Part shown: in pieces, positions 9,431-54,000 of the stretch
How the letters are laid out: the number at the start of each line of letters is the position of its first letter
How positions within the stretch are numbered: the first letter of the stretch is position 1
From: Escherichia coli O157:H7
GTDB taxonomy: Bacteria > Pseudomonadota > Gammaproteobacteria > Enterobacterales > Enterobacteriaceae
Reading direction: 5' to 3' (one strand)
Assembly: GCF_013167455.1 (NCBI RefSeq)
Contig: NZ_CP038328.1
Length of the DNA: 64,000 nucleotides
Notes under the pieces: generated by a model
The model's database searches: none
What the model was told of the DNA's origin: nothing
What the model saw: the letters and a program-made list of their open reading frames with translations, nothing else
Program-made: the position numbers and the translations under genes

Positions 9431-10627
9431 ATGCTAAAAGTGTTATTGCTCTTTGTGTTGCTGATTGCGGGGATCGTGGTTGGCCCGATGATTGCCGGTC
9501 ATCAGGGTTATGTGCTGATCCAGACCGACAACTACAATATCGAAACCAGCGTCACGGGCCTGGCGATCATATTGATTCTGGCGATGGTAGTGCTGTTTGC
9601 CATTGAGTGGCTACTGCGGCGGATCTTCCGCACTGGCGCGCACACCCGTGGGTGGTTTGTCGGGCGTAAGCGTCGCCGTGCACGTAAGCAGACCGAACAG
9701 GCGCTGCTGAAACTGGCGGAAGGCGATTATCAGCAAGTTGAAAAGCTGATGGCGAAAAATGCCGATCACGCTGAACAACCGGTGGTGAACTATCTACTGG
9801 CTGCCGAAGCCGCGCAACAACGTGGTGATGAAGCGCGCGCCAACCAACATCTGGAACGCGCAGCGGAGCTGGCCGGCAATGACACCATTCCGGTAGAAAT
9901 CACCCGTGTACGTCTGCAACTGGCCCGTAATGAAAACCATGCTGCACGCCACGGCGTGGATAAGCTGCTGGAAGTTACGCCACGCCATCCGGAAGTATTA
10001 CGTCTGGCGGAACAGGCGTATATCCGCACAGGTGCATGGAGTTCGCTGCTGGATATTATCCCATCAATGGCGAAAGCCCATGTTGGTGATGAAGAACATC
10101 GTGCAATGCTGGAACAACAGGCATGGATTGGCCTGATGGATCAGGCGCGTGCCGATAACGGTAGCGAAGGTTTGCGTAACTGGTGGAAAAACCAAAGCCG
10201 GAAAACGCGTCATCAGGTAGCGTTGCAGGTGGCAATGGCGGAACATCTTATTGAATGTGACGATCATGATACTGCCCAGCAAATTATCATCGATGGCCTG
10301 AAACGCCAGTACGACGATCGCCTACTGCTGCCGATTCCTCGACTGAAAACAAACAATCCGGAACAGCTGGAAAAAGTGCTGCGCCAGCAAATCAAAAACG
10401 TCGGCGATCGCCCGCTGTTGTGGAGCACACTGGGCCAGTCACTGATGAAGCACGGAGAATGGCAGGAAGCATCGCTCGCCTTCCGCGCAGCGCTGAAACA
10501 ACGTCCGGACGCCTACGATTACGCATGGCTTGCCGACGCGCTGGACAGACTGCACAAGCCGGAAGAAGCTGCAGCGATGCGTCGCGACGGTTTGATGTTA
10601 ACGTTGCAGAACAACCCACCACAGTAG
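9431..10627 (+). CDS. hemY: HemY protein (TPR-containing inner-membrane protein)
   Basis: 398-aa ORF MLKVLLLFVLLIAGIVVGPMIAGHQGYVLIQTDNYNIE...; 2-nt gap after hemX. Confidence 0.9.
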   Translation: MLKVLLLFVLLIAGIVVGPMIAGHQGYVLIQTDNYNIETSVTGLAIILILAMVVLFAIEWLLRRIFRTGAHTRGWFVGRKRRRARKQTEQALLKLAEGDYQQVEKLMAKNADHAEQPVVNYLLAAEAAQQRGDEARANQHLERAAELAGNDTIPVEITRVRLQLARNENHAARHGVDKLLEVTPRHPEVLRLAEQAYIRTGAWSSLLDIIPSMAKAHVGDEEHRAMLEQQAWIGLMDQARADNGSEGLRNWWKNQSRKTRHQVALQVAMAEHLIECDDHDTAQQIIIDGLKRQYDDRLLLPIPRLKTNNPEQLEKVLRQQIKNVGDRPLLWSTLGQSLMKHGEWQEASLAFRAALKQRPDAYDYAWLADALDRLHKPEEAAAMRRDGLMLTLQNNPPQ

Positions 10628-10673
10628 TTCCTTCTCACCCGGAGGCAAGCACCTCCGGGACCTTCCTGACACA

Positions 10674-10880
10674 TAAAAAAACGCCTGCTCTTATTACGGA
10701 GCAGGCGTTAAAACAGGTCTGTATGACAACAAGTGGGTGCTTCACTCAACGTTGTGTCCATGGTGTCTGATGAGGCATAAGCGACATCTGTCAGTGGACG
10801 ATAAGCACCGTAAACGGCTCTGCGTCATTCCGGAGTTTATGAGGCACTAAGGCGAACATAAGAGATGGAATGAGCATCTA
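10674..10880 (-). ncRNA. glmZ: GlmZ small RNA (Hfq/RapZ-dependent activator of glmS)
   Basis: Minus-strand sequence GTAGATGCTCATTCCATCTCTTATGTTCGCC...CGCCTGCTCCGTAATAAGAGCAGGCGTTTTTTT matches the GlmZ sequence as I recall it; ends in an 11-bp perfect stem plus U7 terminator; hemY-aslA intergenic location. Confidence 0.85.
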
Positions 10881-11305
10881 CTCGTTTATTATGCCACAGA
10901 GAATCGGGAAATAACATCCCTTAACACTTGTTATGAGATAATTCTGTAATCCTCTTTGCTTCCTGAGTAATAACTTCCTGAGTGAATATTTAACCTGAGC
11001 TTGATCCTACACATACTTATTATGAATGATAAAATTCATTCAATTAATAACACATATATTAATTGCCGTTAAAACTAAAAACAGCATCAATAATCAACGC
11101 GATATAATAAACCTGCCTTACATATCAACTGCGCCAGAGGTAGGATTGAAAACGCTCTCCTGATTTTTAAATTCATTTCTTGGATAAATAAATAATTTAT
11201 TTTTATCACTATTATTTATGTAATCATCCTGTCAGGGAGAGGGATCTCAATTATCAATGCTTAATTACGTCATCATTTTGTTGACATGAAACCGGAGCAT
11301 TTTGC

Positions 11306-12961
11306 ATGGAATTTTCGTTTTCACCCAAACTTCTTGTTGTTGCTGTCGCCGCCGCTCTTCCTCTCATGGCCAGCGCAGCAGATACCCCGTCAACTGCCAC
11401 CGCGCGCAAAGGCTTTGCCGGATACGATCACCCAAACCAGTATCTGGTTAAACCGGCGACCACTATTGCCGACAACATGATGCCAGTAATGCAGCATCCG
11501 GCGCAGGATAAAGAACCCCAGCAGAAGCTGGCAGAACTTGAGAAAAAAACCGGTAAGAAACCGAATGTGGTTGTTTTCTTGCTGGACGATGTGGGCTGGA
11601 TGGACGTCGGTTTTAACGGTGGCGGCGTGGCGGTGGGTAACCCTACACCAGATATCGACGCCGTTGCCAGCCAGGGGCTGATTTTAACTTCGGCGTATTC
11701 TCAACCAAGCTCTTCCCCAACCCGCGCCACCATTCTCACCGGACAATACTCCATCCACCACGGCATTCTGATGCCGCCAATGTACGGGCAACCGGGCGGG
11801 CTGCAAGGGTTAACCACGCTGCCGCAGTTGCTGCACGATCAGGGCTACGTCACTCAGGCCATCGGGAAATGGCATATGGGGGAAAACAAAGAGTCGCAGC
11901 CGCAGAACGTTGGCTTTGATGATTTCCGTGGCTTTAACTCGGTGTCTGATATGTACACCGAATGGCGCGACGTTCACGTCAATCCGGAAGTGGCCCTGAG
12001 TCCGGACCGTTCTGAATACATCAAGCAATTACCATTTAGCAAAGATGACGTTCATGCGGTGCGCGGCGGCGAACAACAGGCCATTGCCGACATTACGCCG
12101 AAATATATGGAAGATCTGGATCAACGCTGGATGGAATATGGCGTTAAGTTCCTCGACAAGATGGCGAAGAGTGATAAGCCTTTCTTCCTCTATTACGGCA
12201 CTCGCGGCTGTCACTTCGATAACTACCCGAACGCCAAATATGCGGGTAGCTCTCCGGCACGCACCTCGTATGGCGACTGCATGGTGGAAATGAACGATGT
12301 GTTCGCTAATCTGTATAAAGCACTGGAGAAAAACGGTCAGCTTGATAACACGCTGATTGTCTTTACCTCCGATAACGGACCGGAAGCCGAAGTACCGCCG
12401 CACGGACGCACACCGTTCCGTGGTGCGAAAGGATCTACCTGGGAAGGCGGCGTTCGCGTACCGACTTTCGTTTACTGGAAAGGCATGATCCAACCGCGTA
12501 AATCTGACGGTATTGTTGATCTGGCAGATCTCTTCCCAACAGCACTGGATCTGGCGGGGCATCCTGGTGCGAAAGTGGCGAATTTAGTGCCGAAAACCAC
12601 CTTTATCGATGGTGTGGACCAGACATCTTTCTTCCTGGGAACAAATGGTCAGTCTAACCGTAAGGCCGAGCACTACTTCCTCAACGGTAAACTCGCTGCT
12701 GTGCGTATGGATGAATTCAAGTATCACGTCCTGATTCAGCAACCTTACGCTTATACCCAGAGCGGATATCAGGGTGGATTCACCGGCACAGTAATGCAAA
12801 CAGCCGGATCGTCGGTGTTTAACCTCTACACCGATCCGCAGGAGAGCGACTCTATCGGCGTGCGCCATATTCCGATGGGTGTACCGCTACAGACCGAAAT
12901 GCACGCGTATATGGAGATCCTGAAAAAGTATCCACCACGCGCGCAGATTAAATCTGATTAA
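11306..12961 (+). CDS. aslA: Arylsulfatase-like protein (periplasmic, sulfatase family)
   Basis: 551-aa ORF with signal peptide and sulfatase N-terminal motif region ([11 protein letters not shown]...[11 protein letters not shown]). Confidence 0.9.
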
Positions 12962-14510: not shown

Positions 14511-14587
14511 TGGTCGGCGAGAGAGGATTCGAACCTCCGACCCACTGGTCCCAAACCAGTTGCGCTACCAAGCTGCGCTACTCGCCG
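14511..14587 (-). tRNA. proM: tRNA-Pro (anticodon UGG)
   Basis: 77-nt reverse-complement match to canonical E. coli tRNA-Pro incl. encoded CCA. Confidence 0.95.
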
Positions 14588-14629
14588 AAATACTGCTTTT
14601 TGAATTTTTAGTTCAATTCTTTAAAGTCG

Positions 14630-14716
14630 TGGTGCGAGGGGGGGGACTTGAACCCCCACGTCCGTAAGGACACTAACACCTGAAGCTAGCGCGTCTACCA
14701 ATTCCGCCACCTTCGC
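14630..14716 (-). tRNA. leuT: tRNA-Leu (anticodon CAG), distal copy
   Basis: 87-nt match to E. coli tRNA-Leu(CAG) with long variable arm and CCA. Confidence 0.93.
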
Positions 14717-14736
14717 ATTGTCACAACTTCTAATAA

Positions 14737-14813
14737 TGGGGTGGCTAATGGGATTCGAACCTCCGACCCACTGGTCCCAAACCAGTTGCGCTACCAAGCT
14801 GCGCTACTCGCCG
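14737..14813 (-). pseudogene. Chimeric tRNA-like element: tRNA-Pro(UGG) 5' body fused at the T-loop to the tRNA-His 3' T-stem/acceptor strand
   Basis: Read 5'->3' on minus strand: CGGCGAGTAGCGCAGCTTGGTAGCGCAACTGGTTTGGGACCAGTGGGTCGGAG (proM-identical) + GTTCGAATCCCATTAGCCACCCCA (hisR-identical); acceptor and T stems no longer base-pair. Confidence 0.85.
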
Positions 14814-14855
14814 AAATACTGCTTTTTGAATTTTTAGTTCAATTCTTTAAAGTCG

Positions 14856-14942
14856 TGGTGCGAGGGGGGGGACTTGAACCCCCACGTCCGTAAGGACACT
14901 AACACCTGAAGCTAGCGCGTCTACCAATTCCGCCACCTTCGC
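14856..14942 (-). tRNA. leuT: tRNA-Leu (anticodon CAG), proximal copy
   Basis: Identical 87-nt sequence to the copy at 14630-14716. Confidence 0.93.
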
Positions 14943-14962
14943 ATTGTCACAACTTCTAATAA

Positions 14963-15039
14963 TGGGGTGGCTAATGGGATTCGAACCCACGACAACTGGA
15001 ATCACAATCCAGGGCTCTACCAACTGAGCTATAGCCACC
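14963..15039 (-). tRNA. hisR: tRNA-His (anticodon GUG)
   Basis: 77-nt match to E. coli tRNA-His incl. extra 5' G(-1) and CCA. Confidence 0.95.
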
Positions 15040-15096
15040 ACTACAAATCTTGTTACGCGGTATTACTACCACCGCAGCTCAAGCGCCGGGACTAAA

Positions 15097-15173
<77 letters not shown>

Positions 15174-31457: not shown

Positions 31458-31787
31458 TTACGCCAGGTTAGCGTCGAGGAACTCTTTCAACTGACCTTTA
31501 GACAGTGCGCCCACTTTGGTTGCCGCCACTTCACCGTTTTTGAACAGCAGCAGAGTCGGGATACCACGGATGCCATATTTCGGCGCAGTGCCAGGGTTTT
31601 GATCGATGTTCAGTTTTGCAACGGTCAGTTTGCCCTGATATTCGTCAGCGATTTCATCCAGAATCGGGGCGATCATTTTGCACGGACCGCACCACTCTGC
31701 CCAGAAATCGACGAGGATCGCCCCGTCCGCTTTGAGTACATCCGTGTCAAAACTGTCGTCAGTCAGGTGAATAATTTTATCGCTCAT
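31458..31787 (-). CDS. trxA: Thioredoxin 1
   Basis: Translation [41 protein letters not shown]... (WCGPC active site); track ORF has a 35-codon upstream extension. Confidence 0.97.
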
Positions 31788-31917
31788 ATATAACTCCACA
31801 GGAATAAGCCTGGCGTGTTGGTTTCGTTGTTGGTGTAACATTAACCAACTAAAGGTTGACTTTATTTCACCGGATACGCTTTCGTAAAGCAATAGTAAGC
31901 TGATATTCTACCACACT

Positions 31918-47089: not shown

Positions 47090-47188
47090 CTAAGCCTTTC
47101 CTCGTCCAAGTGCAGCCCCGCACGGTGGGATAATAATCACCACCACGCTAATCACGACCAGGCTAATCACTCGTAGAAGGGCTGTCAT
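47090..47188 (-). CDS. ilvL: ilvGMEDA leader peptide (Val/Ile/Leu-rich)
   Basis: 32-codon minus-strand ORF MTALLRVISLVVISVVVIIIPPCGAALGRGKA. Confidence 0.9.
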   Translation of the reverse strand: MTALLRVISLVVISVVVIIIPPCGAALGRGKA

Positions 47189-47540
47189 TTTGTCTTTTCT
47201 TGCATCTTGTTCGAAGGAATGCCTAAAGAGTTACCATAGATTTTGCGAATAGCACAAGATATTTTTTGGCCGTTTTTTATGATGGCTTTAATAATTTCAA
47301 TAGAAATTGTTGTTTTTTAAAAAGAAAATAGTGAGTGAAAAAAATTCAATTTCAGTACGAATGTTGTTCCCTCCCTCGTAGTTCATCCTTTGTCCGCTGC
47401 ATTTTTGCGAGCATCATTCCACCGCCAGAACAACTCAACTTCACTTGCACAAATAAACAGGAATCAGCCACTAAAATTCACGAATTAGCGGGCTACAGCA
47501 GCGATATCTTATGCACATAATGGTGACTCAAGGAGGGCTT

Positions 47541-53807: not shown

Positions 53808-54000
53808 TCACAACCCGAAGATGTTTCTTTCGATTCATCATCGTGTTGCGAAAATTTGAGAGACTCACGAACAACTCTCGTTGTTCAGTGTTTCAATTTT
53901 CAGCTTGATCCAGATTTTTAAAGAGCAAATATCTCAAACATCACCCGAAGATGAGTTTTGAGATATTAAGGTCGGCGACTTTCACTCACAAACCAGCAAG

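What the first reader, a model, noticed from the sequence alone, without database searches (positions are those of the whole stretch)
10628..10960. GlmZ sRNA with back-to-back hairpins in the hemY-aslA spacer (not in the ORF track)
A 207-nt minus-strand sRNA, convergent with hemY, ends in an 11-bp perfect stem (AACGCCTGCTC/GAGCAGGCGTT) plus U7. A second perfect 8-bp inverted repeat (CCCGGAGG/CCTCCGGG at about 10636-10658) lies between the hemY stop and the GlmZ terminator and probably terminates hemY. The glmZ promoter should lie at about 10881-10960. A TGGCAT block sits just upstream of the 5' end; it does not fit the sigma-54 consensus well, so I regard the promoter as sigma-70-type but unverified.
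Basis: partly seen in the sequence, partly recalled or inferred. Interest (0 to 1): 0.3.

Follow-up and report, generated by a model that had tools for sequence, protein, structure and literature searches.

The report
Known GlmZ small RNA gene

Summary
The finding is confirmed and is ordinary. The window is E. coli O157:H7. Positions 10675-10881 (minus strand) match the whole Rfam GlmZ_SraJ model at 218 bits (gathering score 60). This stretch and about 280 bp upstream are base-for-base identical to glmZ (b4456) of K-12. Both inverted repeats exist: 11 bp at 10680-10690/10699-10709 followed by U7, and 8 bp at 10638-10645/10652-10659. The promoter is the published sigma-70 promoter ATGTTA-N15-tggCATAAT (window 10917-10888). 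It lies in register with the tgcAATAAT (-12/-10) of relatives, not with their sigma-54 -24 box, which Escherichia lacks. No GlrR site or sigma-54 consensus is present. The small hairpin does mark the hemY mRNA 3' end: published K-12 Term-seq places it 7 nt after the stem, which is window 10666. It has no U-tract, and a Rho-dependent region lies just downstream. It may therefore be a protective 3' stem-loop of a Rho-terminated transcript rather than a true intrinsic terminator. Novelty: already known. Side observations: an accessory ORF replaces this hairpin in up to about 13% of E. coli genomes (checked in one genome), and the nearby tRNA operon carries a duplication with a chimeric tRNA.

The parts
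10675..10881 (-). glmZ, the gene for the 207-nt small RNA GlmZ (SraJ/RyiA). The 5' end is G at 10881 and the 3' end is the last U at 10675.
   Evidence: Rfam RF00083 at 218.4 bits over the full model. 100% identical to K-12 b4456, whose annotated start 3986432 corresponds to window 10881. In an alignment of 23 species, 13 of 51 predicted pairs show compensatory changes.
10882..10921 (-). Minimal sigma-70 promoter of glmZ (-1 to -40). The -35 is ATGTTA at 10917-10912, the extended -10 TG is at 10896-10895, and the -10 is CATAAT at 10893-10888. The spacer is 18 nt.
   Evidence: Read from the sequence. It is the same string ATGTTA-N15-tggCATAAT that was tested by deletion and mutation in K-12 (PMC3045617). 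The simple -35/-10 scan misses it because the -35 matches only 3 of 6.
10675..10709 (-). Intrinsic terminator of glmZ: an 11-bp stem (10709-10699 pairs with 10690-10680), an 8-nt loop, and U7 (10681-10675).
   Evidence: The stem covaries across 23 Enterobacterales, for example GC to AU in 8 sequences at one pair. K-12 DirectRNA-seq coverage falls from 1924 to 30 across this region (PMC7815308 supplementary file 2).
10713..10732 (-). Single-stranded linker of GlmZ (about nt 150-169, UUGUUGUCAUACAGACCUG). It holds the glmS-pairing sequence and the RNase E processing site. The processed 3' ends correspond to window 10730 and 10728 (nt 152 and 154).
   Evidence: Term-seq 'internal' 3' ends at K-12 3986583 and 3986585. 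UGUUGUC and GACCUG are conserved in nearly all of the 23 species aligned, and the most distant ones (Proteus, Providencia, Morganella) differ in the first block. The predicted duplex with the K-12 glmS leader is -22.9 kcal/mol, and 23 of 1000 shuffles do as well. RNase E cleavage inside the pairing sequence is stated in the abstract of PMC6602413.
10638..10659 (+). Hairpin in the hemY 3' UTR: an 8-bp stem with 7 G-C pairs and a 6-nt loop. The mapped hemY mRNA 3' end corresponds to window 10666, 7 nt after the stem.
   Evidence: The Term-seq primary 3' end of hemY is at K-12 3986647 on the minus strand. The stem is invariant in divergent E. coli while its flanks vary, and E. albertii has a compensatory G-C to A-U change.
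9431..10627 (+). hemY coding sequence (398 aa), last gene of hemCDXY and convergent with glmZ. Listed as context.
   Evidence: ORF list and RefSeq annotation of the identical O157:H7 record.
11306..12961 (+). aslA coding sequence (551 aa), divergent from glmZ across a 424-bp A+T-rich spacer. Listed as context.

Best explanation
Window 10675-10881 (minus strand) is glmZ of E. coli O157:H7.

Transcription. RNA polymerase with sigma-70 starts at G10881 from a weak -35 / extended -10 promoter (ATGTTA-N15-tggCATAAT, 10917-10888). No activator is involved. Transcription stops at an 11-bp hairpin followed by U7 (10709-10675), giving a 207-nt RNA with three stem-loops.

Function. The single-stranded linker before the terminator (about nt 150-169) pairs, with the help of Hfq, with the glmS leader. 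This opens the hairpin that hides the ribosome-binding site, so more GlmS (glucosamine-6-phosphate synthase) is made. When glucosamine-6-phosphate is plentiful, the adaptor protein RapZ hands GlmZ to RNase E. RNase E cuts inside the pairing sequence (about nt 152-154) and inactivates the RNA. When the metabolite is scarce, the paralogous decoy GlmY sequesters RapZ and full-length GlmZ accumulates. In EHEC the same RNA also lowers LEE4 and LEE5 mRNA and promotes EspFu synthesis.

The second hairpin. The hairpin at 10638-10659 belongs to the convergent hemCDXY transcript and fixes its 3' end 7 nt after the stem (10666). Because no U-tract follows it, the more likely mechanism is that Rho stops transcription a little further on, inside antisense glmZ, and exonucleases then trim the RNA back to this protective stem. 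I put this at roughly 55% against 35% for a weak intrinsic terminator. Either way, the two hairpins keep the convergent transcripts apart.

Basis. Shown here: the identity of the locus, the anatomy, conservation and covariation, and the absence of sigma-54 and GlrR motifs. Taken from K-12 and EHEC experiments on an identical sequence: the promoter type, the RNA ends and the targets. Taken from the literature's account of the family (abstracts seen, and my own knowledge): the roles of Hfq, RapZ, GlmY and RNase E. Inferred: the mechanism by which the hemY 3' end is formed.
For: Identity. The Rfam GlmZ_SraJ hit covers the full model at 218.4 bits. The stretch from about 280 bp upstream of glmZ through its terminator is 100% identical to K-12 MG1655, and the K-12 glmZ start corresponds to window 10881. 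The locus is present in 5425 of 5426 complete E. coli genomes. In all 48 Enterobacterales loci where both genes could be located, glmZ is convergent with hemY.

Structure. In 23 species, 13 of 51 predicted pairs show compensatory changes, and the glmS-pairing words are conserved in nearly all.

Promoter. The published string ATGTTA-N15-tggCATAAT is present. K-12 experiments show that -40 to +32 is sufficient, that -35 and -10 mutations reduce or abolish expression, that deleting rpoN or glrR has no effect, and that GlrR does not bind. In EHEC, deleting qseF or qseB has no effect. There is no TGTCN10GACA with up to 1 mismatch in 10882-11305, and no TGGCAC-N5-TTGCA with up to 3 mismatches within 300 bp upstream of glmZ.

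Terminator.. K-12 coverage is 1924 upstream against 30 downstream.

Processing. Term-seq 3' ends lie at GlmZ nt 152 and 154.

Pairing. -22.9 kcal/mol with the glmS leader, and 23 of 1000 shuffles do as well.

hemY hairpin. 27 of 20,000 shuffles give such a repeat. The stem is invariant in divergent E. coli and compensatory in E. albertii. The primary hemY 3' end lies 7 nt after the stem. The tail is ACCUUCCU, with no U in its first three positions. A Rho termination region with score 10.3 lies 51 nt (50 positions) downstream. Dar and Sorek 2018 describe exactly this class: a stable stem-loop, no U-rich tail, and a precise 3' end on Rho-dependent transcripts.

EHEC targets. PMC3903284.
Against: No experimental data come from this strain. 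All RNA ends and promoter tests are from K-12 or EHEC 86-24, although the sequence is identical.

The glmS leader used for the pairing test is from K-12 and lies outside the window. The pairing energy is only moderately better than shuffles (p about 0.02).

The full-length GlmZ 3' end (K-12 3986638) does not appear among the rows naming glmZ in the Adams et al. 3' end list: six mentions of glmZ were counted and the four rows displayed were internal or hemY-antisense ends. The 3' end therefore rests on the terminator anatomy and the Rfam alignment.

For the hemY hairpin, the Rho score is computed from 800-nt windows, and the downstream window includes the aslA promoter region on the same strand. 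The bicyclomycin effect may therefore not be read-through from hemY. A 3' end 7 nt after a stem is equally typical of intrinsic termination. Many E. coli strains and E. albertii have a more U-rich tail (CUUUCU, CUUUUCU).
Confidence: 0.9

Rival explanations
1. The 8-bp hairpin at 10638-10659 is itself a weak intrinsic, Rho-independent terminator of hemCDXY. RNA polymerase releases the transcript 7 nt after the stem.
For: The Term-seq 3' end lies 7 nt after the stem, the usual distance for intrinsic termination. The stem is G+C-rich, about -15 to -17 kcal/mol. At the same position after hemY, Enterobacter, Lelliottia, Pseudocitrobacter, Pluralibacter and Shimwellia have unrelated hairpins followed by T5-T7, which are canonical terminators. 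E. albertii has GCUUUUCUC after the homologous stem.
Against: In this window the tail is ACCUUCCUGA: no U in the three positions next to the stem and 3 U in the first 8. The terminator scan does not report it. A Rho-dependent region with score 10.3 lies 50 positions downstream. Stable stems without a U-tail are the signature of trimmed, Rho-terminated transcripts (PMC6061677).
Confidence: 0.35
2. glmZ here is transcribed from a sigma-54 promoter that uses the TGGCAT block as its -24 element and is activated by GlrR/QseF, as in most other Enterobacterales.
For: TGGCAT resembles TGGCAC. Most relatives have TGGCAC-N5-(G/T)TGCA in front of glmZ (PMC3045617).
Against: TGGCAT lies at -15 to -10, not at -27 to -22. 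The sequence five bases downstream is ACGAG, not TTGCA. The pattern does not match even with 3 mismatches. No GlrR site is present. When anchored on +1, TGGCATAAT aligns with tgcAATAAT, the -12/-10 of relatives, and the relatives' -24 box position reads CCCGAT in Escherichia. K-12 and EHEC experiments exclude dependence on rpoN, glrR or qseF.
Confidence: 0.02
3. The RNA is the paralogous decoy GlmY, or a non-functional GlmZ-like copy, rather than the base-pairing GlmZ.
For: GlmY and GlmZ belong to one Rfam clan (CL00011) and share sequence. The 17-nt pattern used to collect relatives matched at two separate loci in several genomes, only one of them next to hemY, which suggests that both paralogues carry it.
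Against: The best clan member at this position is GlmZ_SraJ, at full length. The locus is next to hemY, not upstream of glrK/qseE. It is identical to b4456 and carries the glmS-pairing linker and the mapped processing site.
Confidence: 0.01
4. The region encodes a protein. Mechanical ORFs run through it: 10420-10770 on the plus strand (116 aa, GTG start) and 10519-10674 on the minus strand (51 aa).
For: Both ORFs are in the mechanical ORF list.
Against: The first overlaps the 3' end of hemY out of frame and runs antisense through the glmZ terminator. The second lies antisense inside hemY. Neither is annotated in RefSeq. Conservation in the region follows RNA pairing rather than codons.
Confidence: 0.01

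Closest known systems
GlmZ (SraJ/RyiA; Rfam RF00083; b4456 of E. coli K-12)
   Same: The sequence is identical over the 207 nt and the promoter. The neighbours are the same (hemY convergent, aslA divergent), as are the 5' end, the terminator, the glmS-pairing linker and the processing site.
   Different: Nothing in the sequence differs. The host is an O157:H7 strain, in which GlmZ has the additional published targets LEE4, LEE5 and espFu. RefSeq does not annotate the gene in O157:H7 genomes. K-12 annotates only 172 nt (3986432-3986603), which stops before the terminator.
[quoted passage not shown]
   Same: The RNA is homologous with the same three stem-loops and linker. hemY synteny is the same. 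The -10 region is in the same register (tgcAATAAT against tggCATAAT, with the hexamer ending at -7).
   Different: Escherichia lacks the TGGCAC -24 box and the GlrR and IHF sites. Similarity to relatives ends at about -17. Transcription is constitutive rather than controlled by GlrK/GlrR (QseE/QseF).
GlmY (Rfam RF00128), the decoy paralogue
   Same: Same clan, similar fold, and bound by RapZ.
   Different: [quoted passage not shown]
Protective 3' stem-loops of Rho-dependent transcripts (Dar and Sorek 2018, PMC6061677)
   Same: The hemY hairpin is a stable G+C-rich stem with no U-rich tail, a sharp steady-state 3' end just after it, and a Rho-dependent region just downstream.
   Different: Rho dependence of hemY termination and exonuclease trimming have not been shown for this transcript. 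Relatives have canonical terminators at the same place.

Membership tests
GlmZ_SraJ sRNA (RF00083) | Covariance-model score at or above the curated gathering score over the full model | tested here: met
   218.4 bits against 60, model positions 1-214 of 214, E = 3.4e-56, best member of clan CL00011 at this place.
GlmZ_SraJ sRNA (RF00083) | Genomic position: convergent with hemY at the end of hemCDXY | tested here: met
   hemY at 9431-10627 (+) and glmZ at 10675-10881 (-). The same arrangement holds in all 48 Enterobacterales loci where both genes could be located.
GlmZ_SraJ sRNA (RF00083) | Three stem-loops, including a Rho-independent terminator with a long U tail, supported by covariation | tested here: met
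   Minimum free energy -60.8 kcal/mol, z = -3.3. RNAalifold on 23 species finds 51 pairs, 13 with compensatory changes, most densely in the terminator.
GlmZ_SraJ sRNA (RF00083) | Single-stranded linker complementary to the glmS leader, the feature that separates GlmZ from GlmY | tested here: met
   UGUUGUC...GACCUG is present and conserved in nearly all of the 23 species aligned. The duplex with the K-12 glmS leader is -22.9 kcal/mol, and 23 of 1000 shuffles do as well. The leader lies outside the window.
GlmZ_SraJ sRNA (RF00083) | RapZ- and RNase E-dependent processing to a species of about 150 nt, and Hfq dependence | not testable with these tools
   Published K-12 Term-seq shows 3' ends at nt 152 and 154 of the identical sequence. 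The protein dependence comes from the literature (abstracts).
Sigma-70 promoter with extended -10 | A -10 hexamer at about -12 to -7 preceded by TG at -15/-14, with a -35 at 16-18 nt | tested here: met
   CATAAT at -12 to -7, TG at -15/-14, and ATGTTA (3 of 6) at -36 to -31 with an 18-nt spacer. This is identical to the promoter tested by mutation in K-12.
Sigma-54 promoter with GlrR/QseF enhancer | TGGCAC-N5-TTGCA at about -26 to -12, plus TGTCN10GACA activator sites upstream | tested here: not met
   No match with up to 3 mismatches within 300 bp upstream. No GlrR site with up to 1 mismatch in 10882-11305. The -24 box present in relatives is absent.
Intrinsic (Rho-independent) terminator: glmZ hairpin 10675-10709 | G+C-rich stem followed directly by a U-run | tested here: met
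   11 bp with 7 G-C pairs, followed by U7.
Intrinsic (Rho-independent) terminator: hemY hairpin 10638-10659 | G+C-rich stem followed directly by a U-run | tested here: not met
   The stem qualifies (8 bp, 7 G-C pairs), but the tail ACCUUCCU has no U next to the stem. The terminator scan does not report it.
Protective 3' stem-loop of a Rho-dependent transcript | Stable stem without a U-rich tail, a precise steady-state 3' end just after it, and Rho-dependent read-through downstream | tested here: inconclusive
   The anatomy is met. The 3' end lies 7 nt after the stem and a Rho region with score 10.3 lies 50 positions downstream in K-12. However, the 800-nt scoring window also covers the aslA promoter region. 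Trimming by PNPase or RNase II was not tested.
REP or other dispersed palindromic element (hemY hairpin) | Many copies per genome | tested here: not met
   The median is one place per genome for the 131-nt query. Each arm word occurs once in the window. Citrobacter has a different GCCCGGTG...ACCGGGC palindrome, which resembles REP elements as I recall them, at this position.

The most novel reading that the evidence does not exclude
The most novel reading not excluded concerns the tail-to-tail junction. hemCDXY transcripts that pass the U-less hairpin run antisense through the 3' half of glmZ, including its glmS-pairing sequence, until Rho stops them. Rho activity, or the transcription rate of the haem operon, could then modulate GlmZ through antisense pairing or polymerase collision. 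On this reading, the conserved hairpin together with the glmZ terminator would act as an insulator that sets this leak. The same junction is an insertion point for accessory genes in up to about 13% of E. coli genomes and in several other genera, which would change the insulation.
Probability: 0.08. Interest if true: 0.35.

Novelty: already known. Interest (0 to 1): 0.07.

Why it matters
GlmZ is a textbook riboregulator of cell-envelope precursor synthesis and, in EHEC, of attaching-and-effacing virulence genes. Recognising it here only fills a gap in automatic annotation, because RefSeq O157:H7 records omit it. Three small additions come from this check. First, the sigma-70 -10 element of Escherichia glmZ lies in register with the -12/-10 of the ancestral overlapping sigma-54/sigma-70 promoter, and similarity ends near -17. 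The published comparison treated the two promoter groups as unalignable. Second, the hemY 3' hairpin is conserved as a structure but looks more like a protective stem than a terminator. Third, the hemY-glmZ junction varies between strains. None of this changes the understanding of the system.

Tried and rejected
1. RNAduplex of full-length GlmZ against the whole glmU-glmS spacer gave a meaningless end-to-end duplex that was worse than shuffles. I replaced it with the linker-only test.

2. The simple sigma-70 scan did not find the glmZ promoter because the -35 is weak. I read the promoter by hand and confirmed it against the published string.

3. Two other Term-seq resources gave nothing. The supplements of the TERMITe paper do not mention hemY or glmZ. 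No supplements are held for Dar and Sorek 2018.

About half were chance matches outside Enterobacterales, and Salmonella and Klebsiella were not among the loci. Statements about those two genera therefore rest on PMC3045617 only.

5. The 196-aa ORF that other E. coli strains carry between hemY and glmZ has no Pfam match, and only noise-level NCBIfam and PADLOC matches over its hydrophobic stretch. It has no relative in the other loci or in the window.

6. I considered a bidirectional role for the glmZ terminator in this window. On the plus strand the hairpin forms (-21.6 kcal/mol) but is followed by UUAAAACA, so it is not a canonical terminator in the hemY direction. In species with only 9-10 nt between hemY and glmZ there is no room for a separate hairpin.

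Full report
Source and context. A 1-kb query around the finding is 100% identical to many E. coli O157:H7 chromosomes and is present in 5425 of 5426 complete E. coli genomes. In K-12 MG1655 the same place carries ncRNA glmZ (b4456) at 3986432-3986603. An alignment of window 10560-11320 (minus strand) with K-12 shows no difference from about 280 bp upstream of glmZ through its terminator. The K-12 start 3986432 falls on window 10881. K-12 coordinates convert as window = 10881 - (K-12 coordinate - 3986432).

Checking the observation. The Rfam scan gives GlmZ_SraJ (RF00083) at 10675-10881 on the minus strand: 218.4 bits against a gathering score of 60, full model, 207 nt. The 11-bp inverted repeat is at 10680-10690/10699-10709, with an 8-nt loop. 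As RNA it folds at -19.8 kcal/mol, z = -5.8. It is followed by a run of seven U, of which the first two belong to the stem. It arises in 27 of 20,000 shuffles of the 47-nt spacer and is unique in the window. hemY (9431-10627, +) and glmZ (-) are convergent.

The RNA. The 207-nt sequence folds at -60.8 kcal/mol, z = -3.3. I collected relatives with one pattern scan of the species-representative genomes. Using blastn and tblastn I identified 54 glmZ loci, and in all 48 where hemY could also be located the two genes are convergent. An RNAalifold run on 23 of them, from E. albertii to Proteus, Providencia and Morganella, predicts 51 pairs. Thirteen of these have compensatory changes, most densely in the terminator stem but also in stem-loops 1 and 2.

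The linker before the terminator carries UGUUGUC and GACCUG in nearly all species; the most distant ones differ in the first block. This linker pairs with the K-12 glmS leader at -22.9 kcal/mol, and 23 of 1000 shuffles do as well. The test is modest but positive, and the target lies outside the window. Published K-12 Term-seq (Adams et al. 2021, PMC7815308, supplementary file 1) lists 'internal' glmZ 3' ends at 3986583 and 3986585. These are nt 152 and 154 (window 10730 and 10728), inside that linker. This is the known RNase E processing site (abstract of PMC6602413). In the same paper's DirectRNA-seq table, coverage in the 800-nt windows around 3986668 (+) is 1924 upstream and 30 downstream without bicyclomycin. 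That fits an efficient glmZ terminator.

The promoter. Upstream of G10881 the minus strand reads GGGATGTTATTTCCCGATTCTCTGTGGCATAATAAACGA. CATAAT occupies -12 to -7 (10893-10888), TG occupies -15/-14, and ATGTTA occupies -36 to -31 (10917-10912). Goepel et al. 2011 (PMC3045617) give exactly 'ATGTTA-N15-tggCATAAT' for Escherichia and Shigella. They show in K-12 that -40 to +32 suffices and that removing or mutating the -35 drastically lowers expression. Mutating the -10 abolishes expression. Deleting rpoN or glrR, or adding plasmid glrR, has no effect, and GlrR does not bind the fragment. In EHEC 86-24, deleting qseF or qseB did not change a glmZ-lacZ fusion (PMC3903284). In the window there is no TGTCN10GACA with up to one mismatch between glmZ and aslA. 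There is also no TGGCAC-N5-TTGCA with up to three mismatches within 300 bp upstream of glmZ.

What the TGGCAT block is. When the upstream regions of the 54 loci are anchored on +1, most species show TGGCAC at -27 to -22 and (G/T)TGCA at -16 to -12. Enterobacter, Citrobacter, Lelliottia, Kosakonia and others add an overlapping tgcAATAAT whose hexamer ends at -7. The Escherichia sequence tggCATAAT sits in exactly that register, and the relatives' -24 position reads CCCGAT in Escherichia. TGGCAT is therefore the extended -10 of the sigma-70 promoter. Positionally it corresponds to the -12/-10 part of the ancestral overlapping promoter, not to a -24 box. Similarity to the relatives ends at about -17. 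The published comparison treated the two promoter groups as unalignable, so this is a small refinement and no more.

The hemY hairpin. In K-12 the dominant 'primary' 3' end of hemY is at 3986647 (minus strand there). The end was detected in the growth conditions shown. The printed context is ...CCCGGAGGCAAGCACCTCCGGGGCCTTCC followed by TGATACATAA. Using the tRNA proM row of the same table as a check, the last ten printed bases lie downstream of the end. Sequence and coordinate arithmetic therefore both place the end at window 10666, 7 nt after the stem. The hairpin does define the hemY mRNA 3' end.

Selection acts on the structure. In divergent E. coli the 8-bp stem is invariant while the bases between the stop codon and the stem, and the tail, vary. 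In E. albertii, GAGG/CCTC has become GAGAT/ATCTC, a compensatory change. The element is single-copy and so is not a REP element. Whether it causes termination is open. The tail ACCUUCCU has no U next to the stem, and the terminator scan ignores it. Adams et al. list a Rho termination region at 3986596 on the hemY strand, 50 positions further on inside antisense glmZ, with Rho score 10.3. Dar and Sorek 2018 (PMC6061677) describe stable stems without U-rich tails as the trimmed, protected ends of Rho-terminated transcripts. A C-over-G excess (ratio 1.5-1.9) spans 10580-10720.

Three points weigh against this reading. The Rho score uses 800-nt windows that also include the aslA promoter region on the same strand. 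Seven nt is the normal distance for intrinsic termination. Relatives have canonical terminators at this position, namely unrelated hairpins followed by T5-T7 in Enterobacter, Lelliottia, Pseudocitrobacter, Pluralibacter and Shimwellia. I put the protective-stem reading at about 55% and the weak intrinsic terminator at about 35%.

Variation of the junction. The distance from the hemY stop to the GlmZ 3' end ranges from 9 nt (Pseudescherichia vulneris, with no room for a second hairpin) to more than 1 kb. Within E. coli, 700 of 5424 genomes match only the glmZ-terminator part of a 131-nt query. In the one I opened (strain S103EC), hemY is followed by a canonical terminator (ATCGCC.../...GGCGAT followed by T7). 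Next comes a 196-aa ORF whose stop codon overlaps the A-run in front of the glmZ terminator. The ORF has no family assignment.

Comparison with what is known, and verdict. Every defining feature of GlmZ that can be tested in silico is met, and the sequence is identical to the K-12 gene. The promoter, ends, processing and targets are published. The only open point is the mechanism by which the hemY 3' end is formed, which is of minor interest.

Noticed in passing
window 14511-15173 (minus strand): The argX-hisR-leuT-proM tRNA operon has six tRNA-like genes here: Arg, His, Leu, Pro-like, Leu, Pro. The internal 'Pro' (14739-14813) is identical to proM for 63 nt and then switches to CCCATTAGCCACCC, which matches the 3' end of hisR as printed in the Term-seq table. 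It looks like a Pro/His chimera left by a duplication through the shared T-arm. It scores only 34.6 bits as a tRNA, and RefSeq annotates two Leu but only one Pro. K-12 and most E. coli have four genes. 289 genomes match the O157 arrangement at 99% or better.
   Followed up: partly
L125 (E. coli S103EC, NZ_CP076693.1) 866-1505; corresponds to window 10628-10674: In up to 700 of 5424 complete E. coli genomes the hemY-glmZ spacer differs. In S103EC, a 196-aa ORF (WP_001260226.1; a hydrophobic N-terminal part and an acidic C-terminal part) with no family match replaces the 8-bp hairpin. hemY then has a canonical hairpin-plus-T7 terminator, and the ORF's stop codon abuts the glmZ terminator. Only one such genome was inspected.
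   Followed up: partly
window 10959-10968 and 10975-10984 (plus strand): A direct repeat CTTCCTGAGT occurs twice, 16 bp apart, with a partial third copy (CCTGAG) at 10994-10999. It lies 78-118 bp upstream of the glmZ start in the glmZ-aslA spacer. Published deletions show that this region is dispensable for the glmZ promoter. Its function is unknown, and it might relate to aslA.
   Followed up: no
L002 (K-12 NC_000913.3) 3986432-3986603: RefSeq K-12 annotates glmZ as 172 nt, ending before the terminator hairpin. The Rfam model and the terminator place the 3' end 35 nt further on (3986638; 207 nt). PGAP-annotated O157:H7 genomes omit the gene altogether.
   Followed up: yes
window 46970-47259 (minus strand): Full-length Rfam hit to Rev39_5p_UTR (RF02744, 156.5 bits against a gathering score of 88). 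The family was described from soft-rot Enterobacteriaceae, and here it appears in E. coli.
   Followed up: no
window 31758-31857 (minus strand) and 53815-53923 (minus strand): Rfam hits to the TrxA 5' UTR thermometer (78.8 bits) and to StyR-44 (122.9 bits). The StyR-44 hit lies just upstream of the 23S rRNA gene in the rrn operon at 50.5-55.7 kb.
   Followed up: no
L032 and L053 (Pseudescherichia vulneris, Escherichia sp. ESNIH1); L030: Only 9-10 nt separate the hemY stop codon from the glmZ 3' end in these genomes. The glmZ terminator hairpin is therefore the only structure available to end both convergent transcripts.
   Followed up: partly
window 11041-11065 and 11184-11222: A+T-rich perfect palindromes lie in the glmZ-aslA spacer: CAATTAATA/TATTAATTG, and ATAAATAA-type repeats. 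They are typical of an A+T-rich silenced intergenic region and were not examined further.
   Followed up: no
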